In this document: positions 35,205-50,538 of the stretch, piece by piece
Position numbering within the stretch: the stretch's first letter is position 1
How the letters are laid out: each line of letters starts with the position of its first letter
Virus record (IMG/VR): IMGVR_UViG_3300042924_005659
Reading direction: 5' to 3' (one strand)
DNA: 64,000 nt
DNA from: a virus
Translations under genes and position numbers: made by a program
Notes under the pieces: model-generated
The model's input: the letters and a program-made list of their open reading frames with translations, nothing else
Database searches by the model: none
What the model was told of the DNA's origin: nothing

Positions 35205-35609
35205 TCAGTCTTTGGCTTTGGTGGGCTTGTTATCCATCATACTTAGTAGTTTGTCTACAAGCAAGTAGCCGCCTACTCCTCCACCGCCTGCTCCCACCAA
35301 ACCTCCCAAAGCGCCATAAGTAGCAACATCCTTTACTCTATTGCTGATATCGGTGCTTAGTCCGTACAACGCATTGGTAGTACCTGCTCCAAGAGCTGCT
35401 CCATTCCACGCACCCAAAAGAGCGCCTACGTCAGCACCTAGGCCTTTTGCAGCGCCTCTAAGTATCCTGGACATGCGAACCTTGTCCTCAGGAGCAGTCA
35501 GGCCGTGAGCCAACGCACTGATGGTAGTGGCTATCAAAGCCTGCTTGGTAAAGTCGCTTTGAGTCTGGTGTGCCTTAAGGGCCTGAAGATTGTTCGCCAG
35601 TTTAATCAT
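35205..35609 (-). CDS. Glycine-zipper membrane protein (putative virion)
   Basis: GxxxG-rich helices; N-terminus MIKLANNL. Confidence 0.65.
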   Translation of the reverse strand: MIKLANNLQALKAHQTQSDFTKQALIATTISALAHGLTAPEDKVRMSRILRGAAKGLGADVGALLGAWNGAALGAGTTNALYGLSTDISNRVKDVATYGALGGLVGAGGGGVGGYLLVDKLLSMMDNKPTKAKD

Positions 35610-36133
35610 TCTTCTTGTGCGTACATGTCCGGATTGAGGTAGGGCATCTCCAATCCGCTTGCTGCGCCTCCGCCTGCTCCAAGCAGAGCTCCAAGGCCAA
35701 GACCGATCAGGGCCTTATCTACTCCGGGAGTTCCGCCCTGACCTTCCATAGCATCAAGGCCTAAACCAGCCAGTGCGCCTATTGGAGCTGCTGTGAAGCC
35801 TCCCTTCAATGCGCCCATCAAAGCTCTTCTCAAATAGTTTGGTTTATCAGAACGAGTAATGATGTCTTCGTTTTCGTAACCCGCCAGAGCATTACCTAAG
35901 GCTCCGCCGACACCGCCAATTAAACCGCCTGCTCCTGCACCCAGTAAGCCCGTCGCCAATGCGTTCGGCACATTGCCAGACGAACCAGCTGCGCCAAGCA
36001 GAGCACCATATAGGCCTCCAGCTAAAGCTCCGCCGCCACCGCCAACTAGGGCGCCTCTAGCAAGACGCTTTTTATAATCTACTTCGCGAGCAGCCTGTTT
36101 AAATGAAGGAACGTAATGAGAGTATGGTGTCAT
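35606..36133 (-). CDS. Glycine-zipper membrane protein (putative virion)
   Basis: Multiple GxxxG helices; N-terminus MTPYSHYVPSFKQAA. Confidence 0.7.
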   Translation of the reverse strand: MTPYSHYVPSFKQAAREVDYKKRLARGALVGGGGGALAGGLYGALLGAAGSSGNVPNALATGLLGAGAGGLIGGVGGALGNALAGYENEDIITRSDKPNYLRRALMGALKGGFTAAPIGALAGLGLDAMEGQGGTPGVDKALIGLGLGALLGAGGGAASGLEMPYLNPDMYAQEE

Positions 36134-36146
36134 GCTTAATATCCTT

Positions 36147-37238
36147 TTATTGAGTTAGAGATGAATTATAGCTATTAGCGTTATTTCTAGCTAATGTGCC
36201 AGCTGGTGGCTTAGGCCCTAGAGTGGAAGTTAGTCCATAGTGCGTAGCAATTGGAGCAAAGTCATCTCCATAATAGTTTCTCATACTGGCATAGAATCGC
36301 GAGTTATTGACGGCGTCTTGCGCAGACTGCACCGCATTAGGAGAATATGCGGCAGTTGGCAATTGTGTCATAGCCTGCTGTACGGTTCCCTGTATAGCTC
36401 CAGGTATGGACTTTAACTGGTTTATGGCGCCGTAGCCCAGAGTCTTGCCTACAGCCCCTATAGGACCAGAGGATAAAACTTTGGCTGCTTCTGTAGCGGC
36501 AGTAAAGGCATTATGCGGTTTAGGACTGCCCATGGAACTGGCGAATCTTGCATCTATGGGATTGCTGCCACCTTGACGATATATGTAGTGGTAGGGGCTG
36601 GAGAGATATTCTTTTCCAGCGTGCAAAACTCCGCCCCAGCCCATCTTGTAGGCCAGTCTATATGCATCTTCAGGAGAGTATCCAGCGTCTAATAAAGACT
36701 GTATGGCCTCGACTTGGTAGTTATTTATATTCTGCACTGCTGAAGCCGCTGCACCAATAGTATCTCCAATTACTTTAGGTACGGTTAAAGCAGCAGCAGG
36801 ACGTGCTACAGTTTTAAATACTTGTCCTGCCCTAGCTGCCGTAGGCAGGGCATAGCGAGCAGCCCCTGTAGGCGCTGCTACAAAGCGAAGAGCATGTGGG
36901 GCTACGGGAGCTGCAAGGGCCAATCCTGCTCCTCCAGCTGCAGCTCCGCTGACTCCCAAAGACGCAGCTGCTGCATCTAACAGAGGGTCTTTATATTGAA
37001 GCTCTAGCTGATTTGGACCTGGTAGCGCGTTGTATACTCGACGTACAGTATCTACCCATGGGGAATCATCAGCATAATCTGAGCCAATACGCCCACCGGT
37101 CCAGTAGTGTGCTGCTCCACTAAATGGCTCTACCAGCTGAGAACCAAATGCCTTTACACCTTCCCATAAAGGATTCTCCTCCGCACGCTTGATGCGGAAG
37201 GAGTGCAAGGCAGAAAGATTGTTGGCCAACTTTATCAT
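36147..37238 (-). CDS. Ala/Gly-rich putative internal virion protein
   Basis: N-terminus MIKLANNL...KRA; shares ELQYxDPLLD with 46665-48635. Confidence 0.65.
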   Translation of the reverse strand: MIKLANNLSALHSFRIKRAEENPLWEGVKAFGSQLVEPFSGAAHYWTGGRIGSDYADDSPWVDTVRRVYNALPGPNQLELQYKDPLLDAAAASLGVSGAAAGGAGLALAAPVAPHALRFVAAPTGAARYALPTAARAGQVFKTVARPAAALTVPKVIGDTIGAAASAVQNINNYQVEAIQSLLDAGYSPEDAYRLAYKMGWGGVLHAGKEYLSSPYHYIYRQGGSNPIDARFASSMGSPKPHNAFTAATEAAKVLSSGPIGAVGKTLGYGAINQLKSIPGAIQGTVQQAMTQLPTAAYSPNAVQSAQDAVNNSRFYASMRNYYGDDFAPIATHYGLTSTLGPKPPAGTLARNNANSYNSSLTQ

Positions 37239-37882
37239 TATTCAAATTTGTTGTATTTATCTATTATAGCTTTAAACTTAGGATTTTTCATGGCGCGCTG
37301 CTTGGCAACATGTTGGCCAGCCAGACTGCCTAGTAACGATGCCAAGCTTGCTGCAGCTCCACCCTCAAGAATTGGAGTAAGCGTCTTGCCAAATCTATCA
37401 TGACCAGCAAGATAGCCGGCGCCTCCAGCACCTAGTCCAGCAAGCAAAGCTGCAGTAATCCCCCAGTTTCTACCAGAGCGATTTATATCATTTAGCAGTT
37501 GCTTTTCTGTTTTATTAAAAGTATTTAAAGCAGCATCGACTCGTTCTCGCTCTTTGGAGAACAGATGTAGTTGGCCCAACAGTTTACCTATACCTAAACC
37601 TGCAAACATGCCGGCAGGCCCTGCAGTCAATCCACCTATGGCAGCACTAGGCAAACCGTAGGCTCCTTGATAAAGAGCGGTATCTCCAAGCTCCCACAGT
37701 CTTTGTTTGTTTAAAAGCGTAGGCCCAAAGAACTGCTGTTTAAGATCTTCGTATCCTCTGAACGGAGTTTGTTCGGGGCTGTGATCCTGTACCGCTACTG
37801 TTTCAAGTACATCTCCTGGCAGATGAGATAACTGAGCTACCTGTTCTACAGCTTTGGAGATGTTGTTAGGCTTCTTGGCCAC
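37238..37882 (-). CDS. Glycine-zipper membrane protein
   Basis: AAIGGLTAGPAGMFAGLGIG; AGLGAGGAG; hydrophobic helices. Confidence 0.65.
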   Translation of the reverse strand: MAKKPNNISKAVEQVAQLSHLPGDVLETVAVQDHSPEQTPFRGYEDLKQQFFGPTLLNKQRLWELGDTALYQGAYGLPSAAIGGLTAGPAGMFAGLGIGKLLGQLHLFSKERERVDAALNTFNKTEKQLLNDINRSGRNWGITAALLAGLGAGGAGYLAGHDRFGKTLTPILEGGAAASLASLLGSLAGQHVAKQRAMKNPKFKAIIDKYNKFE

Positions 37883-37884
37883 GA

Positions 37885-40800
37885 TTACTTACCTAGTATC
37901 TTTACGGTATCTGTTGGGCTTAGCTCACCGCGATTAAACGCCTTTATGACATCGTCCTTGGTTTGGAAGACCTTGACGTTGTCTTTATCGGGAGCCTTTT
38001 TGCTAGCTAAATAAAGACCGTATAGGAATTCGTTCTTTATGAACGGCTGCGCTTGGAACGTAGCAGCGGACATTAGGTTACGGCTAGGCAGCATGCGCTC
38101 GTAGGCTTCGGCTACTGCCTTCTCAGAACTAGGTACGTGCAATCGCATCTGGTCTCCGTCGAAGTCTGCGTTAAAGCCTACGACTACGGAAGGAGACAAC
38201 CTTAGCGTACTGCCAGTGGTAAGCTTGGGGCGTGCTGCCATGAAGTTGTACTTGTGCAGAACCGGAGCACGAGTGATCATCACCGGGCGGCGTTCCATCT
38301 CCGAAAGCAAGGCTCGACGGGCCGTAGGAGTACGGCTCTCCACCTGCTTCATGGCTTCCAAGGGATTGGCTCCAGAAGCCACCAATGCCCTTACTACATA
38401 TGGACGGAAGACAGAGAAAGCCATGTCTTCCGGTACTCCAACGTGGTCCATGTCCAGCGAAGGATCAGGGGTAATTACAGCATTTCCTACGCCTTCTACC
38501 GTGGAGCTCAGTACCTTGCGCTGGAACATCGAGAACTTGGGATTGCTGCCCAGAATATGCCGAATAAGGCCGTTGACGTTCTTCTGCTTCAGCTTAGCGC
38601 TGGCAGGATCGGCAAGACCTACGGTTGCCTTTAACATCTTATACAGAGCCAGGCGCTCCTTGCCTGTAGCTTCCTGGCCCAGCTCAGACTGCAGCTCCTT
38701 CAAGTTGCCGTTCATGCTGAACAGCTCCTTGTATAGGTAGTTCATATCCGAGACCATCTGCATGTTGCCGGTATCGGTAATGGGTCTAAAGCGAGGAGGC
38801 AGCACAGGCATGTCTTCCCAGAGGAAGTCACTAGGCTTCAGCTTGCGCTTCTGCATTCCTTCCAGATATGAAAGCTTGGAAATAGCATTGCTGCGCTTCT
38901 GGCCCTTCGATGCCGTGATCTCCCGACGAGTCTGGTCTATCTCGTTGGGAATATCCAGAGTTGCAAGCTTGGCCTCCAAGCCCTGCATGCCCTTGATGCC
39001 CTTTACGGTCTCGCCTGAAACGACGGACTCAAAGTCCTTCTTGGTCAAACCAGTCAAGGAACGAACCACGTCCTCCATGACTGGATTGACCATCTTGGCA
39101 GCAAGAGGAAAGTGTCCGAATGAAGACTGATTGACTCCGAAGATCTTCTCGTCGAAGAAGCCGCCGTCATAGGCCTTACCGGTTTTGAAGTCTATATCTC
39201 GGAAGTCCTTTACTTCTCCTCCAGACATCTTCTTAACATCGGAGCCACTCATGCCATAGATGTTTACAGCTCCGCCTTGGCGTTCGACATTTACTCCAGA
39301 GCCCTTGAGCTGAGCTACGAACTTGTCCCAAACAAATGGAACGTTGACCGAAGGAACTGGAGTTCCGGTCTTGATAGCTCTCCAGTACTCGTCGTTCTTC
39401 TGGCCACGGATAAGTCGGGCGTCCTTCAAGACCTCGATTGCACCGTGGGCCAGAATGGCATTCATGTCAGAGATCGAGATGCGCTTGGCGCCTTCTTCTC
39501 CGCCCTTGACTGGAGCTTCTTCGGTGCTGTAGCCGCCGGTGTCACGAGCGCTCAGCTTCTTCTCTGCCTGGTGGTGCAGGTTCATGAAGTAACGAGTGCC
39601 GGTAAACACATTGTCTACATTTCGGTTCAACCGAGGATCATAGATCGTCTCGGTATCCGCCATGCCGGCTTTCTTCAGCTCTCGCTGAGCGAAATCGATG
39701 AAGCTCTCGTCCATGAACGCCGGAAGTTTGACGGGCTGCCCGTTCTTAGCGGCAATCTTGCCCATTGCGGCTTCCACGGCCTGCACAGGGTTAACGCGAG
39801 TGACAAGAGCCAGGGGATTATAGATGACTTCATACGAGTTACCGTCCTTATCCTTTGGCATGTCTGCGTCAGGAATAATAGTGGAAATTACACCCTTGTC
39901 TCCGTATCGACCTACCAGCTTGTCTCCAACGGACATCGGCTTGTAGGACTTTACCGCTACTTGGTATCCACTGCGAGTCTTGGTTACGTTGGTAACTACT
40001 CCTGGCTGGCTGTGGTCCCAGGTCTGAGCACGGTTGGTATAGCTTGGCCGAGCCTTCTTCATCAGGCCGAACGTATCAGACTTACGCTCACCTACGCCTA
40101 GGATAATAGGATCGCCAGGATTAAGCACGGTGCCCGGCTTGACCACACCTGTTGCGGAGTCAAGGTTCTTGAGCTGATCCTTGTTGTACTGGCCGGGAAA
40201 TAGAGATACAAACTTGCTAAAGTTGGCTTCGTAGTCGTCCTTGCCGTCATAGCCGACGGTGTACATGTGCTCGGAGGACATCTTCTTTGCGGCGGATTCA
40301 GACATTACCACGCCGTCTTCGAAGTTGGAGCCTCCAAGCTCCGGATCTCCCCATACCGTATAGGCCACCTTCAGATTGCGACCCATGGCCATTCTGCCCT
40401 GATCGTCAGAATAGTTGGACTTAGCCAACAGCTGTCCGGGCTTGATCTGGTCTCCGATCTTGACCATCGGAGTGTTATGGATATAGGTCTTGCGATTGAA
40501 CGGAAAGTTGTTGTACAGCTCGTAGCGACGCTTTTCCTTGCCGTGCTTTACTTCGACGTAGTCCGGAGTTACCGCAGTAACCAAACCGTTGCCGAATTCC
40601 GGCTCCGACTGTACTGCGCCAAGGTGAGGAACCAGTTGCTCCTCAAACGACTTGCCTTCCGGATCATTGGGATCTAATCCCTGTACCAGGGGCGCTTCGG
40701 CCTCCTGGACAGGTAACGCTTGGGTAAAGTACTTGGAGCCCATGAGCAGTCGGCCACCCTTGATTCCAGAAATACCTGGAACAAGATTGGAGTTGACGTT

Positions 40801-42807
40801 GAACATGTTGCTGTAGGCAGGCACCTCGTACTCGACCTCTGCAGGATCGACATAGGAAATGCGGCCACGCACCATGGCTCTTACAGGATCTCCGGTCTTT
40901 GCCGAGCGTGCGAGTTCTCCTGGAAATGCGACTATAGAGTCGGTCAGTGTACGGGCAGCCACAGGTTCCATGGCTCCTGTCTTGACCTTGCGCATCTTGG
41001 AGTAAATCTGACCATCAGCTCCCTTGTAGGAGCCTACGGTAAGTCTAAGGTCGATACCTACTTTATCGGATTCCGGAGTACGTACCGGATCCAGGAAGCC
41101 TAAGTGAGAGGGCTGCACCGAACGGCTATCTACTGGAATGCCGTGTGCAGCGGAGCCTATGCCGCCTTCTCCGGTGCGGATAACTCTCATGTTCTGGTCC
41201 AGGATCTCCATCGGATTGACTTCCTCGATGGGAGCTCCCAGTCCGGAACCAAGCAATACGCCATTCAGTACAGGAGTGAATACTCCGTTCTTGAAGGCAT
41301 TGAGATTACCCTTGTTGGTAGCCTTGAACATGGCGGTGCGTAGAGTTGCACCTGCGTCCTTTTCAATGCGCTCTGAGAAGAAGTCCTCTGCGCTCAGGAA
41401 CTTCTGATAGGCCAAGGAGTCACGGTCGTCCTGATCCTCAAAACCCTTTTGAGCATTTAGAATCTTCTGAGATGCCCGCAGCAGAGTATTGCCGGTAATA
41501 CGGCCGAAGTCCTCTTCATTCAGCTGAAGCTGTTCGTAATCTGCGGCATCAAAGCCGGCAGTTTGCGGTGCTGCCTGCTTTTCGGTTAATAGGTCATTGA
41601 TGTCAGAGGCGACCTTTACACCTACTGCCAACCGGAATCCACCGCGAGGCTTGGCCTCCAACAGGAGACTTCTGCGCAACTGCTCAAGTTCCGGGCACTC
41701 GATATCGATGCAGTACTCTCCGTTGCTTGGAGGCAGCACTCCACGGATCTGATAGGTGAATCTACGGCCGGAGCCACAGGTGGCCTCAAAGCTCTTCTTG
41801 AATACTTTCTTCAGCTGACGAATCTCGTCACTAGTGATTACTATCAGCCGGCCCTTGTCGTTGACTGGGGCAATTGCCGGAGATTTATCGGAATCTCGCA
41901 GGGCATAGAACACTCCGTCAACCAGACCGGCAGGTACGGTTATGTACCCGGTGTCTTCTATCTTGAGCGTTCCGCGAATAGGCACATCTGCCTTTTTGCG
42001 AAGGGCTCCGGCATAGCTCAGAGTGCGTCGGGTAACCTCAGGATCAAGCTCCGTGGAATTCAACGCATCTTTGATTCCCTGGTAGATAGTATTGTCATCT
42101 AGTCCCTTGGAGGGATTGTTAGTAAGACGCTCATATATACGTGCTGCGTCATAGCTGGAGCCGAGCTTATTGGATTCCAGCAATTCCTTGCCCCAGGTTC
42201 TCTCCAGCACCGAATCATCGACGCCTAAAGCCTTGAACATGGGATAAGCTGGAGCAACGGACTGGCCTATCTCAGCAACAAACTTTCCCGTATCAGGCAT
42301 GAATGCAACGCGAAAACCACGACCCTTGCCGGGCATGGTGTTGAAGTGCGCCTCAAACTCACCGGACTTTCTCTTGCGGACATATGGTCCTGCAAGAAGA
42401 CGAGACTGATTAGCAACAGTGTATTCGCTGCCAGCATTTATGAAAGTACCACGGTCCGTAAGATAGGGAACACGAGCCAAGGTTATGGATCTGTCCGTCT
42501 GGTCCATTACCTGACCAGTGGCATTGTCCTTCATTACAAGCCTGCCTCTAAGAGGAACAAAGAGGCTTTGATTTTGCATCAAGGCCTCTTGCTGTTCTTT
42601 TAGAGAATACGGCTCTTCTCTGCCGTAATGAAGATCCGCAGCCTCAATTGTGTAGCGGGCATTCTGAAGCGGGAACTTCTTCGCCACCGCATTACGCACT
42701 CCATCAAATATGTTTTTACGAGTAGTGCGATAATCGCTAAAACCCCTCAGCACCGGGGCAAGAGGGGTTACGAGTTGGTTTAAGTCGTCTGCGCCGGGCG
42801 TAGGCAT
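37885..42807 (-). CDS. DNA-directed RNA polymerase: fused beta subunit plus catalytic N-terminal half of beta-prime (1640 aa)
   Basis: Beta motifs PYLTDRGTFI, HLGFLDPVRTPE, LMGSKYFTQALP, NFEDGVVMSE, GDKLVGRYGDKGVIS, YFMNLHHQ, GAKRI; beta-prime motifs GFFDEKIFG, PVLPPRFRP, SDMNYLY, RAPVLH, NADFDGD (38152-38172). Confidence 0.93.
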   Translation of the reverse strand: MPTPGADDLNQLVTPLAPVLRGFSDYRTTRKNIFDGVRNAVAKKFPLQNARYTIEAADLHYGREEPYSLKEQQEALMQNQSLFVPLRGRLVMKDNATGQVMDQTDRSITLARVPYLTDRGTFINAGSEYTVANQSRLLAGPYVRKRKSGEFEAHFNTMPGKGRGFRVAFMPDTGKFVAEIGQSVAPAYPMFKALGVDDSVLERTWGKELLESNKLGSSYDAARIYERLTNNPSKGLDDNTIYQGIKDALNSTELDPEVTRRTLSYAGALRKKADVPIRGTLKIEDTGYITVPAGLVDGVFYALRDSDKSPAIAPVNDKGRLIVITSDEIRQLKKVFKKSFEATCGSGRRFTYQIRGVLPPSNGEYCIDIECPELEQLRRSLLLEAKPRGGFRLAVGVKVASDINDLLTEKQAAPQTAGFDAADYEQLQLNEEDFGRITGNTLLRASQKILNAQKGFEDQDDRDSLAYQKFLSAEDFFSERIEKDAGATLRTAMFKATNKGNLNAFKNGVFTPVLNGVLLGSGLGAPIEEVNPMEILDQNMRVIRTGEGGIGSAAHGIPVDSRSVQPSHLGFLDPVRTPESDKVGIDLRLTVGSYKGADGQIYSKMRKVKTGAMEPVAARTLTDSIVAFPGELARSAKTGDPVRAMVRGRISYVDPAEVEYEVPAYSNMFNVNSNLVPGISGIKGGRLLMGSKYFTQALPVQEAEAPLVQGLDPNDPEGKSFEEQLVPHLGAVQSEPEFGNGLVTAVTPDYVEVKHGKEKRRYELYNNFPFNRKTYIHNTPMVKIGDQIKPGQLLAKSNYSDDQGRMAMGRNLKVAYTVWGDPELGGSNFEDGVVMSESAAKKMSSEHMYTVGYDGKDDYEANFSKFVSLFPGQYNKDQLKNLDSATGVVKPGTVLNPGDPIILGVGERKSDTFGLMKKARPSYTNRAQTWDHSQPGVVTNVTKTRSGYQVAVKSYKPMSVGDKLVGRYGDKGVISTIIPDADMPKDKDGNSYEVIYNPLALVTRVNPVQAVEAAMGKIAAKNGQPVKLPAFMDESFIDFAQRELKKAGMADTETIYDPRLNRNVDNVFTGTRYFMNLHHQAEKKLSARDTGGYSTEEAPVKGGEEGAKRISISDMNAILAHGAIEVLKDARLIRGQKNDEYWRAIKTGTPVPSVNVPFVWDKFVAQLKGSGVNVERQGGAVNIYGMSGSDVKKMSGGEVKDFRDIDFKTGKAYDGGFFDEKIFGVNQSSFGHFPLAAKMVNPVMEDVVRSLTGLTKKDFESVVSGETVKGIKGMQGLEAKLATLDIPNEIDQTRREITASKGQKRSNAISKLSYLEGMQKRKLKPSDFLWEDMPVLPPRFRPITDTGNMQMVSDMNYLYKELFSMNGNLKELQSELGQEATGKERLALYKMLKATVGLADPASAKLKQKNVNGLIRHILGSNPKFSMFQRKVLSSTVEGVGNAVITPDPSLDMDHVGVPEDMAFSVFRPYVVRALVASGANPLEAMKQVESRTPTARRALLSEMERRPVMITRAPVLHKYNFMAARPKLTTGSTLRLSPSVVVGFNADFDGDQMRLHVPSSEKAVAEAYERMLPSRNLMSAATFQAQPFIKNEFLYGLYLASKKAPDKDNVKVFQTKDDVIKAFNRGELSPTDTVKILGK

Positions 42808-42824
42808 AGAACTTGTACTCTAGC

Positions 42825-43832
42825 TTAAAGCTTGAACTTTGGCTTACCTTCTTCAGACTCTTCGAGATCAATGCCAGAAGACAAAGCACCAGAGGCAATG
42901 TCTCGCTTTAGCATGCTTTGCAACGTCTTCAGTTTTGCCTTCTCAGGATCGTCCTTCATCTTGTTGTTCATCATCCACCAACCAAGCAATGCCCCGACAC
43001 CAGGAGCAAGACCCAAGGCATAAGCAGCACCTGGAATGCTGAAACCTGGACCGTGAGGATCCTTCTCTGTAACTATTCTATCGGGAGAAATTGGATCGAA
43101 TGCAACCTTGGTAAGTGCGTCGATCTGGGCTTGAAGATCAGAAGACTGCTTTGAAAGAACCTTTTCAAATTCTTTTTTAGCCTTATCAATCTTCTTATCC
43201 ATCTTAGCTTTGCGCTGCTGATCCACTAAACGAGTACCCAGCATAAAAGTAAGAATACCTGGAGCCAGCACGGCTGCAGGAGTAGCCATACCATACAGCA
43301 TAGGTTCCGTAAGATACTCTCCGAGAGTTGTAGCTGACTTGTCGGCAGAGGATTTCGGAGACTCCATGTCTTCAATCACATCGGCAGAAAGATCTGAGGT
43401 TAGCTCATCTGCCTTTTCCGGAAGCATGTCTGCTGGATTGGAGGCCTGCTGTTCAGAAAGCAGATCTTCCAACTTATGGCTCTTTGGAATAGCTATACGC
43501 TTTTCCATGCGCTTGGCTCTGCCCTCTTGGCCAGGCAAACCAAACATGGATTCGTCGTGGAGGTATTTTGAAAGACCGTAAAGACCTGCGCCGCCTAATC
43601 CAATACCTGCGCTAATTGCAGCATAGTTAAGAAGTTGTCTTACGTTGGGATCCATAGATTCCTTCTTGCTTTCAGGCAGGTCTTCATGCTTGGTTCCGGC
43701 AAAATCTCGTACGTCCTGTTCAGACATACTAGCAGCAGCCTCTTCAGCCTTTCCAGAGCCGATAGCTTTGCCTTCTTGAATGGCTTTAACCAAGCCAAAA
43801 AAGCGTTGTTGCTTTTTGCTTTGAGCAGGCAT
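42825..43832 (-). CDS. Putative virion protein with DUF3008-like N-terminus and glycine-zipper helices
   Basis: MPAQSKKQQRFFG...ASMS...DFAGTKHEDLP resembles DUF3008 (from memory); three hydrophobic segments. Confidence 0.55.
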   Translation of the reverse strand: MPAQSKKQQRFFGLVKAIQEGKAIGSGKAEEAAASMSEQDVRDFAGTKHEDLPESKKESMDPNVRQLLNYAAISAGIGLGGAGLYGLSKYLHDESMFGLPGQEGRAKRMEKRIAIPKSHKLEDLLSEQQASNPADMLPEKADELTSDLSADVIEDMESPKSSADKSATTLGEYLTEPMLYGMATPAAVLAPGILTFMLGTRLVDQQRKAKMDKKIDKAKKEFEKVLSKQSSDLQAQIDALTKVAFDPISPDRIVTEKDPHGPGFSIPGAAYALGLAPGVGALLGWWMMNNKMKDDPEKAKLKTLQSMLKRDIASGALSSGIDLEESEEGKPKFKL

Positions 43833-43835
43833 TAA

Positions 43836-44366
43836 TTAAATTCCTAGTTTGCTTGAAAGCGAGTCTCTTAGTGCAGCTAGAAGATCTTGCTGCTCAGCCT
43901 TATTTAGCCGGCTTTCGTATCTACGCTCAAAAGCCATTGGAGTGTTGCTTGTGTTCAAGGCCGATAGAGCATCTGCAGCATCTACAAACTGAGAGAGGTA
44001 AGGACTACGCGCAGGAGAAAGATATCCTTCTCCGGTTCGCATGGGGAAATCTGCTCTTAGTTTTGCTAAGTCAGCCTTAGTACCCTCGATATTAGCCTTC
44101 TGATCGGCTAGAGAATAATCTCCCAGGGCCTTGGCTCCAGCGCCCAATCCAGCACCTACTCCTCCGCCGATAAGAGCACCCTTAAGCTTAGATTCTCCGC
44201 GCAATGCGTTAATCAAAGCACCAACGCCAGCACCGGCAAGACCTCCGCCACCTGCATAGATTGCGTAGTCCTTAAGCAAGCTGTCTGTTGGGTTAAGTGC
44301 AGCAAGAGCATCCTGCACAGTAATGTTGGATTGCTTGAGAGTCGGCAGATAATGGGAGTAGGTCAT
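43836..44366 (-). CDS. Glycine-zipper membrane protein
   Basis: GGGLAGAGVGALINALRG...GALIGGGVGAGLGAG; N-terminus MTYSHYLPTLKQS. Confidence 0.7.
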   Translation of the reverse strand: MTYSHYLPTLKQSNITVQDALAALNPTDSLLKDYAIYAGGGGLAGAGVGALINALRGESKLKGALIGGGVGAGLGAGAKALGDYSLADQKANIEGTKADLAKLRADFPMRTGEGYLSPARSPYLSQFVDAADALSALNTSNTPMAFERRYESRLNKAEQQDLLAALRDSLSSKLGI

Positions 44367-44773
44367 TAGGTAGATTCCTTTACATTGTTCGCATTTGTGT
44401 TAATGCGCATTATATCCATTTCATACAGATAGAGGTGCATTTCTTCAGCCGGAATTTGCAATAGAGCGTAGTACTTTATCCACGAAGTCCAGTTTTCTTT
44501 GGACTCAACCCACTCTGCAACCTCCGTAAAATCACACCATCCTCTGTCTTTCCATTTTACCAAAACATCCACTAATTGGTTGTACTGAGCCAGCTCCCCA
44601 TCTTTCCAGAGGCAGAACTGTCTAGAATTAAAAAATGGAGTTTCTTGTGGTCGTTTGTCTTGGCTGTCGTTTTCTTTAACTATTGGCGACACCGAGCCAA
44701 AGAATGGCGGGTCACTCAAGTTCTGGTGCTTAAAGTTAAATAACGGTACGTCAGCAGGGGATCCAATAGTCAT
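44366..44773 (-). CDS. Hypothetical protein
   Basis: ORF track; operon packing. Confidence 0.6.
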   Translation of the reverse strand: MTIGSPADVPLFNFKHQNLSDPPFFGSVSPIVKENDSQDKRPQETPFFNSRQFCLWKDGELAQYNQLVDVLVKWKDRGWCDFTEVAEWVESKENWTSWIKYYALLQIPAEEMHLYLYEMDIMRINTNANNVKEST

Positions 44774-45069
44774 GGAGGAGACTGTACCTTATCAATCTCT
44801 TCTTGTACCTTTTTACCTATTTCTTTTGCTTTAGCGGCTGCTGCTTCGCTCATGGCGGCTCTAGTAGCCCGGTATTCGTTGGAGCCGAGGTATCCCAGAC
44901 TTCCTCCGGCCAATGCACCTAGAGCTCCAGAGCCTAGACCTAAGCCTAAAGTTTGTTTAGTTTTGGGGGTTAAAAGTTTGTATAAACCATAACCGCCAGC
45001 GCCACCAATGCCGGCACCTAATAAAGCATACAATAGATCGTTAGAGTCCAAGGCAGACAGCTTTTGCAT
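44770..45069 (-). CDS. Glycine-zipper membrane protein
   Basis: LLGAGIGGAGGYG; LGLGLGSGALGALAGGSLG. Confidence 0.7.
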   Translation of the reverse strand: MQKLSALDSNDLLYALLGAGIGGAGGYGLYKLLTPKTKQTLGLGLGSGALGALAGGSLGYLGSNEYRATRAAMSEAAAAKAKEIGKKVQEEIDKVQSPP

Positions 45070-45416
45070 TACGCTAGTCCAGACTGTACCAATTTCTTGG
45101 CATTGCGATATTTGGCCAATAGGTGCAACTTCTTGGCTTCTTCTACGGCGCTATAGTTAGGAAGAATAGAGTCGTCGGGATCCAACTCAAACTTAGCCTT
45201 ATTGTAAAGGTAGTTGCTAAGAGCTCCCGCTGCAGTACCTCCAAGCAGACCCAAAGAGCCAAGGAGTAGCCCAGTATGCAGGGTATTCTTAGCTACATCG
45301 TCTACTCCGGATTGCTTATAGCCAGAAAAAGACATTAGTTCCGAAGGGAGGATTCCTAGTTCGGCAGCCTTTTCGCAAAAGCCTTGTCTAAATTCTTGTA
45401 GTTCTTCGTTGGTCAT
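45069..45416 (-). CDS. Membrane protein with glycine zipper
   Basis: GFCEKAAELG; GLLLGSLGLLGGTAAG. Confidence 0.65.
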   Translation of the reverse strand: MTNEELQEFRQGFCEKAAELGILPSELMSFSGYKQSGVDDVAKNTLHTGLLLGSLGLLGGTAAGALSNYLYNKAKFELDPDDSILPNYSAVEEAKKLHLLAKYRNAKKLVQSGLA

Positions 45417-45447
45417 AGTGTAATTCTACCTTAGTTAATAAAATTGC

Positions 45448-46668
45448 TCAAAAGGACAGCTTGCCTAGATTGATCAATGTACCTAGGGCTGCTCCTGTGC
45501 CTTGCATTAGTTTCTGCTCATTTGGCTTAAGATTAACAAACATACCTATGCCTTTGGCTGCGGCGGTTCCAGCAACAGCGCCTGCACCAGCTCCAATAGC
45601 AGCATGAGCGATATCCCTCACCGTAAACCAGGGCTTGTTGGATTCCCGGCTTGCACGAAGCATAAGTCCAGCAGCCTGGCCGTAGTCGACATACCCTGAG
45701 CGCATCTGTTCGCTGACCACGTCGGCTAAGTGAGTCCTAGCTATCTGCATGTCCATAGGTATATAGGAACCATTCTTAGTGGAACCCTTACCTTCAGCAA
45801 CAAGAGCATTAGACCCGGTCGGAATTATACCTGAGCGCCTGCGAGAATCTTGCTGCATATTTTGCTTGTCTGCTTCGGTATAGTTTTCGTTCTTCGGCAA
45901 AGACATTCTGGAGATGTCTGCCATGGTAGAAGGAGCGTTAACAAGCCACGGTGCACTCATACCGCCCAAAGCAGCCAAAGCCATCATGGCCTTTTCCTTG
46001 CCTCTAAAACGCTCCGGGAACATGTACTTAAGTACAGGAATTGCAGCTAAACCTAAACCTGTAAGCCCTACACCTGAAACAAGGTTTCCAAATCGAGTCT
46101 GTGCAGCAGGAGTAAAGCTGCCCTCGTTGTACCAAAGCCCTGGGCTATAACCCAATGCCCGTGATAGATCCGATGTCAGTGCGGCATTCTTATATGCAAA
46201 TGGAGTTGGGCTCATCTTTTTACGCATATAGTCTGCCGTGGCGGGATACAGCTTTTCAGCAGCAGTGCCGCCGACAGGCGTTTGTTGTTTGCTCTTTTCT
46301 CCCACCTGTTTTGTTGCTTTGGTAAGGTCTGCCTTCATGCTGCCAAACAAAGAGGGAAGTTTGACATAGCTGCCATCGCCACCTCCAGAAATGTTAGGCA
46401 TTCCAAATCCAGCGCCAATGCTAGTCGCAGCAGCAGACTCTTTGCTAGGAGCCTGACCTAGCTCTAAGTTGCCTATTACGTTCTTAGGAACGTGAATCTT
46501 GAAGTTGGTGGCGCTATGCGTCAAACCTACAATTCCATCCTTCTCAGAGTCTACGTAGAACTCTTTTGGAGCCTTGAGCACCAAATCGTGAATCAAGTCA
46601 TGCTTCTGAGAGTACTGTTTGGCATCAGAAAACTGCTTTGCTCTTTTAAGGTCTTTAAGTACGCTCAT
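45448..46668 (-). CDS. Putative virion protein with hydrophobic/glycine-zipper segments
   Basis: ORF track; KESA, KNAA, KNG motifs separate the domains. Confidence 0.6.
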   Translation of the reverse strand: MSVLKDLKRAKQFSDAKQYSQKHDLIHDLVLKAPKEFYVDSEKDGIVGLTHSATNFKIHVPKNVIGNLELGQAPSKESAAATSIGAGFGMPNISGGGDGSYVKLPSLFGSMKADLTKATKQVGEKSKQQTPVGGTAAEKLYPATADYMRKKMSPTPFAYKNAALTSDLSRALGYSPGLWYNEGSFTPAAQTRFGNLVSGVGLTGLGLAAIPVLKYMFPERFRGKEKAMMALAALGGMSAPWLVNAPSTMADISRMSLPKNENYTEADKQNMQQDSRRRSGIIPTGSNALVAEGKGSTKNGSYIPMDMQIARTHLADVVSEQMRSGYVDYGQAAGLMLRASRESNKPWFTVRDIAHAAIGAGAGAVAGTAAAKGIGMFVNLKPNEQKLMQGTGAALGTLINLGKLSF

Positions 46669-48635
46669 GGAGAGGTCTCCTCGGCAGGCTGCATGTTTTT
46701 GTACACTTCGCTCATTATTGGTTGTAGCTCAGCTAGCGTCTCCGTAAACGGAACCTGCCCAGAAGACGGATTTTGCTGAGCGGCGCTCAAGCGACGAGCC
46801 CCTTCGAGCAACTCCTGATATCCGCTAGGAGCTTGACCTGTTTGCCGGTAGCTGTCATGCATCGCAGACAACATCACGTTAAGGTTGGCCAGCTGAGCAG
46901 TAGCTCCAACTACCGCTTCCGGATTACCTCCGACCAAGCTTGCGACTGGAGACTGCATAAGGTGACGGCCTAGTGGAGAGGACTCTACTTGTGAAGGATC
47001 TTGCTGCAGAGCACTCAAAGCATCGTACAGCCTAGGATCCTGCATAGCTGCCCCAGGAAGGTTCAACATTCCGCCAGTCAGTTCGGGGGCCAGGCTGCCC
47101 ATTCGGAACGTAAGGCTCTGCTGCATTTTCTGTCTAGCCTCAGGAGAAGCTTTTGCTAAAGCCTCTTGAACGTTTGGATCCTGCATCGGGTCCTTGCCTG
47201 TCGCAAACGCCTCTGCAAATGGAGCCCAGGCAGTTCCTGCCGCTATTTCGTCCTGGTTTAAGTCCTCTGAGTAACTGCGAGCACCTAAAGCTCGGAAGGG
47301 ATTAAATGAAGTGCCTTCCGCAAGTCCAGACACGTAAGAGTATGAAGGATTGGCGGAGTTAAACGCATCTGTAACTTCAGTTCTTATTTGATTCAAAGCC
47401 GCGGGATTCTCTTGCACTAAAGCTTGATCCTCAGGAGACAAAGAAGCTACCCGATTAGCTACAGCCTGATCTATAGCTGCAGAACCTTGCTGAGCCAATC
47501 CGGGCATAAAGGCACTCGCCCCTATTCCGTATGGGTTTAGCGAAGTAGGATCAAATGAAAAGCCTCCTGCAGCAAGGGACTCGGCAAAACGTCTAGCAGA
47601 GGCAGGAGTGCCCGCTAGCTCTGGATTAACTTGATTGAAAGACTGCACATCTCTTATAGCATTGGCGTAGTTTCTTGCTGCTCCTTGAGTAGCCAGGTGT
47701 GCTCCTAATTGACTAAACGGCAACGCCCAACTAGATCCAGCAGTAGCGGCGCCAGTTAGCAAGGGAACCGGATTTATTCCAGATACGGCATAATTTAAAC
47801 TTGATGGAACCGACCTACCTGCAAATCTAACAACAGGACTTGCAGCAGTCTGCATTACCGGCTGAAATCCTTGACTCAAAGCTTGGCCGGTTGCTCTAAG
47901 AGCACTGGGCGCTACGCTCTTAGCGCCTTGTACTCCAGCCTGGCCAGTTGCTCTAAGAGCACTGGGCGCTACGCTCTTAGCGCCTTGTACTCCAGCCTGA
48001 GCAGCAGCGCTTCCTCCTGCCGTTCCAGCCATCATCAAAAAACTTGGAGCAGCCTCAAGCGCGTAGCTGGAATAATCCAAAAGAGGATCGTTGTACTGCA
48101 GCTCAAAATTTCCACCCCAACGATTTGCAACTCGCTTTCCAGCATCTGCAAGCATGCTGCCATACACGGCATCAGACTTAGCCTTATCGGCAGATGCCTG
48201 GTTGAATCCCTTCGTAGCGACGTCGTAGCCATACATAAACGGAGCTGTAGGCATGACAGGAGATCTAGCCAGGTCTCCAATAAAGGCTCCTGTTGCACTA
48301 GGACTTGGAGCAACAGCGTTAGGGTTTACTGGAGCAGCACCTCTAGCTTGTGCCTCGTAAAGTCTAAATCGATTTCTTAAATCAATCTGCTCCTGAGACA
48401 TCCCTGTTCGTTCAGAGCCTTTATAACCCCAACCTTTAGTGCTGTAAGTGTAATCCCCGTAAGGAAAAGCACGAGCATACTCAGACTCCAAAGCCTTACC
48501 TTGAGCGGCAAGCTGAGGATCTATATTAGGCCGGTTGTAATAACCAGGCGGCTGAAACGCCTTGCCTGCGGTCTCCGTAGCGGAGGTGTACCCAGGAGCC
48601 TGAGCTTTCTTTATGTAGGAACTGTACGGAGTCAT
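46665..48635 (-). CDS. Ala/Gly/Gln-rich putative internal virion (ejection) protein
   Basis: 656 aa; N-terminus MTPYSSYIKKAQ; internal 19-aa tandem repeat. Confidence 0.6.
   Translation of the reverse strand: MTPYSSYIKKAQAPGYTSATETAGKAFQPPGYYNRPNIDPQLAAQGKALESEYARAFPYGDYTYSTKGWGYKGSERTGMSQEQIDLRNRFRLYEAQARGAAPVNPNAVAPSPSATGAFIGDLARSPVMPTAPFMYGYDVATKGFNQASADKAKSDAVYGSMLADAGKRVANRWGGNFELQYNDPLLDYSSYALEAAPSFLMMAGTAGGSAAAQAGVQGAKSVAPSALRATGQAGVQGAKSVAPSALRATGQALSQGFQPVMQTAASPVVRFAGRSVPSSLNYAVSGINPVPLLTGAATAGSSWALPFSQLGAHLATQGAARNYANAIRDVQSFNQVNPELAGTPASARRFAESLAAGGFSFDPTSLNPYGIGASAFMPGLAQQGSAAIDQAVANRVASLSPEDQALVQENPAALNQIRTEVTDAFNSANPSYSYVSGLAEGTSFNPFRALGARSYSEDLNQDEIAAGTAWAPFAEAFATGKDPMQDPNVQEALAKASPEARQKMQQSLTFRMGSLAPELTGGMLNLPGAAMQDPRLYDALSALQQDPSQVESSPLGRHLMQSPVASLVGGNPEAVVGATAQLANLNVMLSAMHDSYRQTGQAPSGYQELLEGARRLSAAQQNPSSGQVPFTETLAELQPIMSEVYKNMQPAEETSP
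47884..47997. repeat. 57-bp in-frame tandem duplication
   Basis: Two near-identical copies starting 47884 and 47941, encoding GQAGVQGAKSVAPSALRAT. Confidence 0.9.
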
Positions 48636-49060
48636 GCTAATGCAGTGCTTCCAGGTACTTTAGGTTCTATTTGCGAAGAGCTATGGAATACTTCAGAGTC
48701 AGGCAAAAGAGACTTGTAGTCCTGCGTGGACTTGTTTATATCTGGAACATATTTATCAACAAGCGATTTAGACTCCGATTCAGGCACCACAGGCTGCTCA
48801 TATACAGTTACTAAGTTTGGAGCTACTTTTAGACCGTAGGAAACCAATCTTCTAATCAGGTCCGAGTTTGCGCTTTCCTTAACTACCGTAATCTCGACAA
48901 CTTTGTCTGCAACAGGAGCGCTGTGCTCCAGCTCTGGCTTATTCATTGATGCCAGCATGGACTCCAACTTATCTATTAACATACTTTCTGTGTCGGTAGC
49001 CGACATAGACTCACAGGCACAACAGGCGTATTTGACCAAGTAAGCTTTAAATAAGTTCAC
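48632..49060 (-). CDS. Hypothetical protein
   Basis: ORF track; first gene of the - strand operon. Confidence 0.55.
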   Translation of the reverse strand: MNLFKAYLVKYACCACESMSATDTESMLIDKLESMLASMNKPELEHSAPVADKVVEITVVKESANSDLIRRLVSYGLKVAPNLVTVYEQPVVPESESKSLVDKYVPDINKSTQDYKSLLPDSEVFHSSSQIEPKVPGSTALA

Positions 49061-49295
49061 AGATTGCTCCTGAGATCACTGCAAATTATAGCTAAAAAGA
49101 AAGTAGGATTCCAACAGTAAATGCCGTTTAAAAAAGTGTATCCACGTTGCGTATGTTTCTTGTTGCTGTATTCTAATTCTATATACAAGGAAATACTTAT
49201 TAGTGAAGAGGTTAGTAACTTTCGCAACGTGGAGGCACTTTTTTTGAAGGTTCTATGTCGACATTTGAAACAAGGTTTTGCTAAAATGCAGTTCC

Positions 49296-49721
49296 ATGAT
49301 TCCATACGCTCATTGTAAACAGGCGGCTCTATTTGAGGGAGCCAACTCCGACGGACTGCAAGGTCTTAGGGCATTAATTGGAGCTGGACTTGGCGGAGTA
49401 CTAGGAGCAGGTTTAGGTGCAGGTGGAGGGTTACTTAAAGAAACTTTCTTTACTCCTGCAGATCAAGCTCAGTATCTTCGCAGAGCTTTACAAGGTATGA
49501 GCCTTGGAGGTTTGGCAGGTGCGGGTATTGGAGCAGGAGTGGGTGCAAGCAATATAGGTAAGGGTGTACAAAATGCTTTAGAGGATTCTGCGGCTAGAGC
49601 CAACACTAAAATGTTGCAATATGTTGTTGACGCTCTTAATGCCGTTGAAGTAAAAGGCCTAAGTCCACTTGTAGGTACCCCTACGTTTGGGATTAAAGAA
49701 AAGGAAACGACTAATGAATAA
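49296..49721 (+). CDS. Glycine-zipper membrane protein
   Basis: Start re-assigned to MIPYAHCKQAA; GAGLGGVLGAGLGAGGG; GGLAGAGIGAGVG. Confidence 0.65.
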   Translation: MIPYAHCKQAALFEGANSDGLQGLRALIGAGLGGVLGAGLGAGGGLLKETFFTPADQAQYLRRALQGMSLGGLAGAGIGAGVGASNIGKGVQNALEDSAARANTKMLQYVVDALNAVEVKGLSPLVGTPTFGIKEKETTNE

Positions 49722-50469
49722 ATCCGCACAGTACAACCTACTTCGTTATTATCTAATGCAAAAGCTTGCTGCAGAATGTGACTGCGGTATGGATGAAGAA
49801 AGTTGCGACTGCGAGGAGTGCAGCAAAAAAGCCTTTCTAGGCTTATTTAGCAGCGATCCCAGTCCTAACGAAATCTCTATTCCTGACCCTTCTGATAGTG
49901 ACGATCCTGACGTTGAAGTAGAGAAGTCCCTTAAAAATTTAGGCTTTACCGATATTCAACGCCACATGTTTACTCCTTACGTGAATCCATTTACGGCGAA
50001 GGGCCCGGATGGAAAATACTACACGATAGATTTAGATGAAGATGAAAATGTTTGGAGGTCTAAATCTATCAGCGATATGTACGGAGTAGATTCTGTTGCA
50101 GATCTTCCCGATCCGTACAATAGATCTGAGCCTAGATTGGTGCGTTATGCAAGTAAAAAAGCAGATACTTCTTTATTGACTGCTAGTCTTTTAAAGTGGG
50201 CGGCCTCTTCTCCAGCCTGGCAGCGTTCCGAGGGTAAGAACCCGGAGGGTGGTCTCAACGCCAAGGGCAGAGCTAGCTACAACAAGGCTACTGGTGGCAA
50301 CCTGAAGCCTCCGGTGAGCGCTGAGGCTGCCGATAAGAGTCCAGCCAAGGCCAAGCGTCGTAGCAGCTTCTGTGCCCGTTCTGACGGCCAGCGTCGCATG
50401 CACAACATCGATTGCTCCAAGACTCCAGACAAGAGAATCTGCTTGGCCAGAAAGAAATGGGACTGCTGA
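49714..50469 (+). CDS. Putative virion protein with C-terminal DUF6321-like domain
   Basis: AWQRSEGKNPEGGLNAKGRASYN...RRSSFCAR...ARKKWDC, a widespread phage motif (family name from memory); start MNKSAQY. Confidence 0.55.
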   Translation: MNKSAQYNLLRYYLMQKLAAECDCGMDEESCDCEECSKKAFLGLFSSDPSPNEISIPDPSDSDDPDVEVEKSLKNLGFTDIQRHMFTPYVNPFTAKGPDGKYYTIDLDEDENVWRSKSISDMYGVDSVADLPDPYNRSEPRLVRYASKKADTSLLTASLLKWAASSPAWQRSEGKNPEGGLNAKGRASYNKATGGNLKPPVSAEAADKSPAKAKRRSSFCARSDGQRRMHNIDCSKTPDKRICLARKKWDC

Positions 50470-50538
50470 TAGTTTTAAAAATTTCAGCACTTGACAGCCA
50501 GCTCTTTGAAGCTGGCTGCTCTTTATAGGGGTTTACTC

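What the first reader, a model, noticed from the sequence alone, without database searches (positions are those of the whole stretch)
41570..42000. Catalytically dead 2H-phosphoesterase-like domain inserted in the RNAP and bracketed by K-x-A motifs
About 140 aa (GYITVPAGLVDGVFYAL...GRLIVITSDEI...RFTYQIRGV...IDIECPELEQLRRS...GFRLAVGV) interrupt the beta sequence. The pattern resembles a phage 2H-fold family, but both HxT/S motifs read RLIV and RLAV. The insert is flanked by KKA and KVA/KQA, the motif that punctuates neighbouring virion proteins. Hypothesis: a packaged polymerase whose insert is a nucleotide-binding or packaging module cut out during head maturation.
Basis: partly seen in the sequence, partly recalled or inferred. 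Interest (0 to 1): 0.72.

Follow-up and report, generated by a model that had tools for sequence, protein, structure and literature searches.

The report
Dead phosphoesterase domain inside phage polymerase
An uncultured lake phage's own RNA polymerase carries, spliced into a surface lobe, a 2H phosphoesterase domain that has lost all four catalytic residues yet is kept under strong selection, while related phages carry working copies.

Summary
Confirmed. Window 37885-42807 (-) encodes a 1640-aa fusion of RNA polymerase beta with the N-terminal half of beta-prime. Residues about 266-425 are an in-frame insert in the beta lobe. Salmonella phage Arash, Vibrio phage D69, other metagenomic relatives and bacterial beta lack it.

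The folded core (277-398) is a 2H phosphoesterase of the 2H-SAK type (PF22547). It aligns with intact-motif copies in related polymerases (HHalign 98%, E 2.8e-13). The 21 best structural matches are all 2H proteins (Z 6.3-4.1); the next scores 2.8.

Both HxT/S motifs are lost (RLI, RLA). All 35 polymerases with dead copies form one clade, and the domain is as conserved as the polymerase core, so it is a retained pseudoenzyme. The former second His is always Arg or Lys.

The K-x-A flanks are real and conserved, but they mark the whole 2H-SAK module family, not this gene alone. Neighbouring genes carry conserved leaders ending in K-x-A/S, so a head-protease code is plausible. Excision of the insert is untested. 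Packaging rests only on Arash virion proteomics.

Earlier notes of this scan report intact 2H cassettes in polymerases of other phage genomes. This is the inactivated variant.

The parts
37885..42807 (-). Gene for a 1640-aa fusion of RNA polymerase beta with the N-terminal (catalytic, NADFDGD) half of beta-prime; host of the insert
   Evidence: ORF list and translation; Pfam Rpb2_3, Rpb2_6, Rpb1_1, Rpb1_2; 30% identity over 89% to Arash gp206
41533..42012 (-). Whole insert with its linkers, residues 266-425, in the beta lobe
   Evidence: Absent from Arash, D69, L026-L029, P0045 and Salmonella beta. Lies between segments that align to E. coli beta 48-231 and 415-599. Linkers 266-275 and 401-425 have pLDDT below 50.
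41614..41979 (-). Folded 2H-SAK-type core, residues 277-398
   Evidence: AlphaFold2 model of the insert, pLDDT 79. VIA-align: the top 21 chains are all 2H proteins, Z 6.3-4.1, next Z 2.8. BFVD matches down to E 1.5e-5, including a protein named Swiss Army Knife 2H. HHalign to intact polymerase 2H inserts: 98%, E 2.8e-13.
41842..41850 (-). Degenerate first HxT/S motif: R320-L321-I322
   Evidence: Aligns with PH-I-S/T-V of intact copies; coordinates checked
41626..41634 (-). Degenerate second HxT/S motif: R392-L393-A394
   Evidence: Aligns with FH-I/V-T of intact copies. This position is R or K in 39 of 39 distinct dead copies.
41989..41997 (-). Upstream K-x-A (K271-K272-A273) in the N-terminal linker
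   Evidence: K-x-[AS] kept in 29/31 relatives; lies in the low-confidence linker 266-275
41608..41616 (-). K398-V399-A400 at the end of the last strand
   Evidence: Kept in 30/31 relatives; at offset +6 from the former second His in 28 polymerase copies
41572..41580 (-). Downstream K-x-A (K410-Q411-A412) in the variable C-terminal linker
   Evidence: Kept in 25/31 relatives although local identity is only 0.35. It sits at +18 from the former second His, the same offset as the K-x-A of 69/125 non-polymerase 2H-SAK proteins.

Best explanation
Shown: residues 277-398 of this phage's beta/beta-prime-N polymerase chain are a 2H-SAK-type phosphoesterase domain, inserted in frame into a loop of the beta lobe on two flexible linkers. 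Both catalytic HxT/S motifs are replaced (His to Arg twice, Ser/Thr to Ile and Ala), so the classical 2H reaction is lost. The loss is fixed in one whole clade of lake-phage polymerases. The domain there is as conserved as the polymerase core.

Inferred: the domain descends from an active cargo enzyme of the kind that related phage polymerases and polyvalent phage proteins still carry. The polymerase is packed into the virion and injected, as in phage Arash.

Inferred, and my commitment on mechanism: the dead domain now works without catalysis, as a tethered binding module on the lobe. Most likely its old active-site cleft, which keeps a basic residue at the former His positions, holds a phosphate-bearing ligand (an RNA end or a nucleotide) or a partner protein.

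The K-x-A borders came in with the module. They may be head-protease sites, but cutting is not required by this explanation.
For: Homology:
- HHalign of the dead-copy clade against intact-motif polymerase inserts gives 98%, E 2.8e-13.
- tblastn reaches E 1e-10 across both motifs.
- A profile of the insert finds 981 proteins; the nine non-polymerase hits sampled all match PF22547, and 8 of the 15 alignment members match it too.

Fold: VIA-align's top 21 chains are all 2H proteins; BFVD matches agree.

Inactivation: 139 of 143 non-polymerase copies keep both motifs. The four exceptions are two polymerase fragments (P0016, P0095) and two that keep the His but lack the Ser/Thr. Among polymerase copies, 17 are intact and 42 have lost both motifs, once the stand-alone L021 is set aside.

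Single origin of the dead state: dead copies are monophyletic in the domain tree (support 0.965) and in the polymerase core tree (35 proteins, support 1.0).

Selection: the domain is 71-82% identical among close relatives, against 72-91% for flanking core. Its dN is 0.14-0.22 against saturated dS, while the linker 401-435 drops to 21-59%.

Cleft still constrained: the former second His is R or K in 39/39 distinct dead copies, the former first His in 28/39.

Packaging: Arash gp206 had the most spectra in virion mass spectrometry (PMC10585845).
Against: - No ligand, partner or activity was tested.
- Pfam does not recognise this sequence on its own, and Foldseek against the PDB gives only E 0.05 or worse.
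- The basic residues could serve fold stability rather than binding. In the P0031 subclade the first His is Phe and the first Thr is Glu.
- Arash virion preparations contained 116 proteins, so abundance there is not proof of packaging, and Arash has no insert.
- Insert-less relatives such as P0045 show the polymerase does not need the domain.
Confidence: 0.55

Rival explanations
1. The insert is a cleavable cassette. The prohead protease cuts after K-x-A in the two flexible linkers (after A273, and after A400 or A412). This frees a roughly 14-kDa dead 2H domain and leaves beta as two chains in the mature head. The domain would act before cutting, for example as an internal capsid-targeting or scaffold-binding propeptide.
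For: - K-x-[AS] at 271 and 410 lies in linkers with pLDDT below 50. It is conserved although the second linker is only 21-59% identical.
- All polymerase-borne 2H modules are flanked by K-x-[AS] (98-100%, against 40-44% after shuffling).
- 12 of 16 ORFs around the gene have K-x-[AS] in their first 28 residues, against 6 of 46 elsewhere (p about 1e-5).
- The leader M-x-P-Y-S-x-[YF]-x-K-x-[AS] is shared by unrelated ORFs and kept in 14/15 orthologues. This resembles the T4 capsid-targeting sequence, which ends in the gp21 site (established knowledge; PMC9026906 was listed but not read).
- Relatives look naturally split at either border: P0080 stops after its 2H, and the P0084, P0099, P0103 and P0067 ORFs start at theirs.
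- N4 virion polymerase needs a non-polymerase region for encapsidation (PMC5512222).
Against: - No proteomic data exist for this phage.
- K-x-A is not enriched in the polymerase overall (13 observed, 9.9 expected) or across the window. Six other conserved K-x-[AS] lie in the structured core.
- The same flanks occur in non-polymerase 2H-SAK proteins at a fixed offset, so they could be structural parts of the module.
- In SPN3US all mapped cuts of substrates remove N-terminal propeptides (PMC10052503).
- Insert-less relatives would have to be packaged without such a module.
Confidence: 0.25
2. The domain still catalyses a phosphoester reaction with non-canonical residues, Arg or Lys in place of His.
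For: Basic residues are retained at both former His positions. A few clade members have Ser or Thr at the fourth position of motif 2, or a stray His.
Against: All four defining residues are replaced here, and the His of the conserved VHKGL segment of intact copies reads Pro. No 2H enzyme is known to work without the two His (established knowledge of the family; Mazumder et al. 2002, cited in PMC7824862).
Confidence: 0.03
3. The resemblance to 2H is by chance, and the block is an ordinary lineage-specific beta-lobe domain like E. coli SI1.
For: Pfam finds nothing in this sequence alone. Foldseek against the PDB is not significant. Structural Z scores of about 6 are modest.
Against: Profile-profile E 2.8e-13. 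Pairwise tblastn E 1e-10 to intact copies, aligned through both motifs. The structural match list is purely 2H down to rank 21, followed by a sharp drop.
Confidence: 0.02

Closest known systems
2H-SAK domain (Pfam PF22547) and the 2H domains of phage polyvalent proteins (Iyer et al. 2017, PMC5512222)
   Same: Same fold and demonstrable sequence homology. Same module borders, with K-x-A upstream and at +18 after motif 2. Found in large phages, probably on proteins carried in the virion.
   Different: Those copies keep both HxT/S motifs (139 of 143 sampled), and most sit at the N-terminus of multi-enzyme proteins. This one is internal to a polymerase and has lost all four catalytic residues.
Intact 2H-SAK inserts in related phage polymerases (P0036, P0038, P0044, P0067, P0084, P0087, L019-L024)
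   Same: The same polymerase family, the same lobe and a related 2H subfamily, including the shared CG[SN]GR[RK] segment in some.
   Different: They are catalytically intact and belong to a different polymerase clade. They sit one helix (about 35 residues) upstream of our insertion point, often beside SET, LNS2-like, DUF5661 or zinc-ribbon modules.
Lineage-specific inserts of bacterial RNA polymerase beta, such as E. coli SI1 (beta-i4) in the lobe
   Same: An in-frame, dispensable surface domain in the same roughly 180-residue interval of the beta lobe.
   Different: From established knowledge, SI1 is built of beta-beta-prime-module-2 repeats, not a 2H fold. Exact equivalence of the insertion point could not be established.
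Acb1 anti-CBASS phosphodiesterase
   Same: A phage protein with the 2H fold (7t27, Z 5.3). A relative's polymerase (P0080) carries a 2H domain at our site that weakly matches the Acb1 family.
   Different: No Pfam Acb1 match here, and no catalytic residues.
Virion RNA polymerases (Arash gp206/gp216, phiKZ-like vRNAP, N4 vRNAP)
   Same: A phage-encoded polymerase probably packed in the head. N4 vRNAP also carries extra non-polymerase regions, one of which is needed for encapsidation (PMC5512222).
   Different: No 2H domain has been described in any of them. Arash gp206 lacks the insert.
T4 capsid-targeting sequence and gp21 cleavage code
   Same: Short shared leaders on unrelated head proteins, ending in a P3-x-P1 type motif.
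   Different: The motif here is K-x-A/S, its cleavage is unproven, and in this gene it is internal rather than N-terminal.

Membership tests
2H phosphoesterase superfamily | Two-lobed alpha+beta 2H fold | tested here: met
   AlphaFold2 model, pLDDT 79. VIA-align ranks 1-21 are all 2H proteins, Z 6.3-4.1, with 100-122 residues aligned; the next match scores Z 2.8. BFVD matches agree.
2H phosphoesterase superfamily | Two H-x-T/S motifs on the central strands | tested here: not met
   The motifs read R320-L-I322 and R392-L-A394 in the aligned columns. It is therefore a homologue by descent, not an active member.
2H-SAK (PF22547) | Significant sequence similarity to family members | tested here: met
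   HHalign 98%, E 2.8e-13 to intact-motif inserts that match PF22547. tblastn E 1e-10. The profile search retrieves PF22547 proteins.
2H-SAK (PF22547) | Direct match of this sequence to the Pfam model | tested here: not met
   hmmscan of the 148-aa insert finds no 2H family at E up to 1; 8 of the 15 alignment members match.
2H-SAK (PF22547) | Phosphodiesterase activity | not testable with these tools
   Needs an enzyme assay.
Acb1 anti-CBASS | Match to PF23474 and intact HxT/S motifs | tested here: not met
   No Pfam match and the motifs are lost. Only general fold similarity to 7t27, Z 5.3.
Lineage-specific insert of RNA polymerase beta lobe | In-frame block in the lobe, absent from relatives whose flanks are conserved | tested here: met
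E. coli SI1 (beta-i4) type insert | Same insertion point and a BBM2 fold | tested here: inconclusive
   The insert lies in the same interval (E. coli 232-414). HHalign has no confidence inside that interval. The fold found is 2H, not BBM2.
Head-protease-processed propeptide or cargo | Conserved candidate cleavage motif at exposed borders | tested here: met
   K-x-[AS] at 271 and 410 in low-confidence linkers, conserved in relatives.
Head-protease-processed propeptide or cargo | Demonstrated cleavage in virions | not testable with these tools
   No proteomics for this phage. The head protease gene lies outside the window and no whole genome was available.
Virion-packaged RNA polymerase | Protein present in purified virions | not testable with these tools
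   Only by homology: Arash gp206 gave the most spectra in virion mass spectrometry (PMC10585845).

The most novel reading that the evidence does not exclude
The beta lobe of this phage polymerase family is a cargo bay. Enzyme modules bordered by K-x-A are translated inside the polymerase, carried into the prohead with it, and cut free by a head protease that reads Lys-x-Ala, leaving a split beta. In this clade the freed 2H domain has become a non-catalytic protein, for instance an internal capsid-targeting piece or a binder of a host immune nucleotide.
Probability: 0.2. Interest if true: 0.85.

Novelty: new variant of a known kind. Interest (0 to 1): 0.62.

Why it matters
No paper I could find describes a multisubunit RNA polymerase with an enzyme-derived domain spliced into the beta lobe (literature searches found none).

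This clade shows the later fate of such a cassette. The catalytic residues are gone, yet the domain has been held under selection across deep divergence, so it has a second, non-catalytic role on an injected polymerase.

It also gives a clean natural comparison for testing two things: what the cassette does, and whether a Lys-x-Ala code directs processing of head cargo in this large, uncultured group of freshwater phages. The comparison has three arms:
- intact 2H copies in one polymerase clade;
- dead copies in another;
- none in their sisters.

Tried and rejected
- **Pfam on the insert alone:** no 2H match.
- **Foldseek against the PDB:** nothing at E 0.001 or better, although 2H proteins dominate the list. 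VIA-align was needed.
- **Whole genome:** none is held, so the head protease, major capsid protein and beta-prime C-half could not be examined.
- **The look-up of encoding contigs:** The context of the apparent split forms (P0080, P0084, P0099, P0103, P0067) is therefore unchecked.
- **dN/dS:** dS is saturated or undefined, so only dN and identity are quoted.
- **Placing the insertion point on E. coli or Salmonella beta by HHalign:** no confidence inside the lobe interval. My manual match of ELDPEVTxxTL to E. coli residues around 375-392 is not used as evidence.
- **Global K-x-A enrichment:** absent. Only position-specific conservation and N-terminal leaders are significant.
- **L021:** first counted as a polymerase insert, but it is a stand-alone 187-aa ORF.
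- **Arash:** its proteins near gp206 show no clear K-x-A leader pattern, so it may not share the code.
- **Aligning the short insert to full-length proteins (A2):** its C-terminal end was misplaced. I replaced it with alignments built from DNA references (A3, A4).
- **megablast of the region against phage records:** no match.
Full report
**The gene.** Window 37885-42807 on the minus strand is one 1640-aa ORF. Pfam finds beta domains Rpb2_3 and Rpb2_6, followed by beta-prime domains Rpb1_1 and Rpb1_2, and NADFDGD lies near the C-terminus. The chain is therefore beta fused to the N-terminal half of beta-prime. The closest named relatives are Salmonella phage Arash gp206 (30% identity over 89% of the chain) and Vibrio phages D69, D148 and D181. 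There is no nucleotide-level match in phage records. No whole genome is held. Earlier notes of this scan call it an uncultured lake jumbo phage and place the beta-prime C-half elsewhere in the genome. I did not test that.

**The observation.** The finding's coordinates translate to residues 270-412 and hold every quoted string. E. coli beta residues 48-231 align with our 36-211, and 415-599 with our 432-613. The block therefore sits in the beta lobe, in the interval that houses SI1 in E. coli. The following all lack it:
- Arash gp206 and D69;
- four IMG/VR polymerases at 31-39% identity;
- P0045, the sister of our clade;
- Salmonella beta.

In insert-less relatives the sequence runs ...ELDPEVTxxTLG-(8-10 residues)-TLLRA. 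Ours has the insert between TL(S) and GRITGNTLLRA. An AlphaFold2 model of residues 1-625 gives a folded unit at 277-398, between segments 266-275 and 401-425 with pLDDT below 50.

**What the insert is.** A word-indexed search with residues 150-520 found 91 relatives.
- About 34 share the insert at 41-93% identity over that region.
- More distant polymerases (P0036, P0038, P0044, P0067, P0084, P0087) carry Pfam PF22547, "Swiss Army Knife 2H phosphoesterase", in the same lobe interval, with intact PH-I-S/T and FH-I/V-T motifs.
- P0080 carries a different 2H domain (PF13563, weakly Acb1-like) after the same helix as ours.

Homology of our insert to the intact copies is shown in three ways. HHalign of the two groups gives 98%, E 2.8e-13. 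Pairwise tblastn to L019 and L020 gives E about 1e-10, aligned through both motifs. A clean 15-sequence alignment built from DNA references puts GRLIVI under PHISVL and FRLAVGV under FHITVAV.

Pfam does not recognise our sequence alone, but 8 of the 15 aligned members match PF22547.

The AlphaFold2 model of the insert (pLDDT 79) finds nothing significant by Foldseek in the PDB (E 0.05 or worse), although 2H proteins dominate the list. VIA-align against 48,161 chains puts 21 2H-superfamily structures on top, Z 6.3-4.1, and then drops to Z 2.8. They include MHV ns2, CPDases, LigT-like proteins, Usb1, a phage phosphodiesterase, CNPase, Acb1, rotavirus VP3, AKAP18 and ASCC1. BFVD gives E 1.5e-5 and lists a protein named Swiss Army Knife 2H phosphoesterase.

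**It is dead, and the dead state is old and selected.** A profile of the insert finds 981 proteins. In most of the best 150 the module lies near the N-terminus of a protein of very varied length. The sampled ones pair it with DUF5661 and with LigD 3'-phosphoesterase, NUDIX, histidine phosphatase, kinase-like and SNF2 helicase domains.

- In 203 aligned copies, 139 of 143 non-polymerase proteins keep both motifs. The four exceptions are two polymerase fragments (P0016, P0095) and two that keep the His but lack the Ser/Thr.
- Among polymerase copies, 17 are intact and 42 have lost both motifs, once the stand-alone L021 is set aside.
- Dead polymerase copies are monophyletic in a domain tree (support 0.965). 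They lie inside a group with the intact polymerase copies (support 0.87).
- In a tree of 1424 core columns, the 35 polymerases with dead copies form one clade (support 1.0). Its sister, P0045, has no insert. Polymerases with intact copies form a separate clade.
- Among close relatives the domain is 71-82% identical, against 72-91% for flanking core, with dN 0.14-0.22. dS is saturated or undefined wherever it was computed, so only a low ratio can be inferred. The linker 401-435 falls to 21-59% identity.
- The former second His is Arg (32) or Lys (7) in all 39 distinct dead copies. The former first His is Arg or Lys in 28.
- The His of the VHKGL segment of intact copies reads Pro here.

**Insertion points.** Our module follows the ELDPEVTxxTL helix, as does the unrelated intact 2H of P0080. 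The intact SAK-type modules precede that helix. Taken with the core tree, this favours separate insertions, or movement of the module, over one ancestral insertion. A duplicated helix with differential loss is not excluded.

**The K-x-A bracket.**
- K-x-A is not enriched in this protein (13 observed, 9.9 expected) or across the window.
- The three sites next to the domain are conserved (29/31, 30/31 and 25/31). The last sits where local identity is only 0.35.
- Two of them lie in the flexible linkers.
- The bracket is not special to this gene. Polymerase-borne modules are flanked by K-x-[AS] in 98-100% of cases, against 40-44% after shuffling. Non-polymerase 2H-SAK proteins are flanked in 75-92%, against 38-53%.
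- A K-x-A lies exactly 18 residues after the second His in 69 of 125 non-polymerase proteins. Our K410 is R392+18.

The borders were therefore inherited with the module.

Separately, 12 of 16 ORFs in the cluster at 35-51 kb have K-x-[AS] in their first 28 residues, against 6 of 46 elsewhere (Fisher p about 1e-5). A leader M-x-P-Y-S-x-[YF]-x-K-x-[AS] is shared by unrelated ORFs and is kept in 14 of 15 orthologues of one of them. This resembles the T4 capsid-targeting sequence that ends in the gp21 site (established knowledge). The polymerase itself has no such N-terminal leader.

**Packaging and cleavage.** In Arash, gp206 gave the most spectra in virion mass spectrometry, but 116 proteins were detected in that preparation (PMC10585845). 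In SPN3US, apart from the protease's own self-cleavage, all mapped head-protease cuts remove N-terminal propeptides (PMC10052503). Some relatives look naturally split at the module borders. P0080 ends just after its 2H. The P0084, P0099, P0103 and P0067 ORFs begin with a short leader, K-x-A and the 2H module. Excision is therefore plausible but unproven, and I give it about one chance in four.

**Comparison with what is known.** 2H domains in phage polyvalent proteins were described by Iyer et al. (2017). They proposed RNase activity or degradation of immune signalling nucleotides (PMC5512222). I found no paper that places a 2H domain inside a multisubunit polymerase. Earlier notes of this scan report intact 2H, SET plus 2H, and Acb1-like cassettes in polymerases of other phage genomes, and first-reader notes of dead copies in two other genomes. 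Those notes are unchecked AI leads. My own searches independently found the intact and dead forms in metagenomic relatives.

**Verdict.** The "dead 2H domain in the polymerase" reading is well supported. The packaged state rests on homology, and excision at K-x-A is open. This is a new variant of known kinds: a lineage-specific lobe insert, a polyvalent-protein 2H module and a pseudoenzyme.

Noticed in passing
window 35205-50469, both strands: Unrelated small glycine-rich proteins share N-terminal leaders ending in K-x-A/S: MTPYSHYVPSFKQA, MTYSHYLPTLKQS, MTPYSSYIKKA, MIPYAHCKQA, and MIKLANNL twice. 12 of 16 ORFs here have K-x-[AS] in their first 28 residues, against 6 of 46 elsewhere. The leader is kept in 14/15 orthologues of ORF 46665-48635.
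   Followed up: partly
window 1-10995 (-) and 10997-17326 (-): Two giant ORFs, one over 3665 aa and one of 2109 aa, with RCC1-like beta-propeller repeats (Pfam RCC1_2, E 5.6e-70). K-x-[AS] is depleted in both (z about -2).
   Followed up: no
window 61574-63436 (-): A 620-aa protein homologous to the Arash portal gp204 and to Vibrio D69_0259 (tblastn E 1e-47 to 1e-52). In Arash and D69 the portal gene lies just upstream of the polymerase gene; here it is 19 kb away.
   Followed up: partly
window 50491-51588 (+), 49687-50469 (+), 42825-43832 (-): A dockerin/EF-hand-like repeat at the C-terminus of the 365-aa protein, a DUF6321 C-terminal domain in the 260-aa protein, and a DUF3008-like N-terminus in the 335-aa protein next to the polymerase gene.
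   Followed up: no
relatives P0036, P0039, P0044, P0037, L019, L020, L022: The same beta-lobe region of related polymerases holds other modules (SET, LNS2-like phosphatase, DUF5661, Cys-rich zinc-ribbon-like segments). Those I inspected have K-x-A nearby (for example P0037, P0041 and the L019/L020/L022 group). Many of these polymerases also carry LAGLIDADG inteins.
   Followed up: partly
P0080; P0084, P0099, P0103, P0067: Apparent natural splits of beta at the module borders. P0080 is the beta N-terminal part plus an intact 2H domain and then stops. The other four ORFs begin with a short leader, K-x-A and the 2H module, followed by the rest of beta and beta-prime-N. Genomic context not checked.
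   Followed up: no
L021:2059-2622 (+): A stand-alone 187-aa ORF with a 2H-SAK-like domain that has also lost both motifs (AGIVV, MSIVV). It groups with a non-polymerase protein in the domain tree, so this may be an independent inactivation.
   Followed up: partly
window 41398-42210 (-) compared with L023, L019 and P0080: The insertion point of the dead module, after the ELDPEVTxxTL helix, differs by one helix from that of the intact SAK-type modules, which lie before it. P0080 has an unrelated intact 2H at our site.
   Followed up: partly
L001:11980 and L002:5218: The polymerases of Arash and Vibrio D69 start MPKSAS and MPKKAS, a K-x-A at residues 3-5. Our protein starts MPTPGADD and has none.
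   Followed up: no
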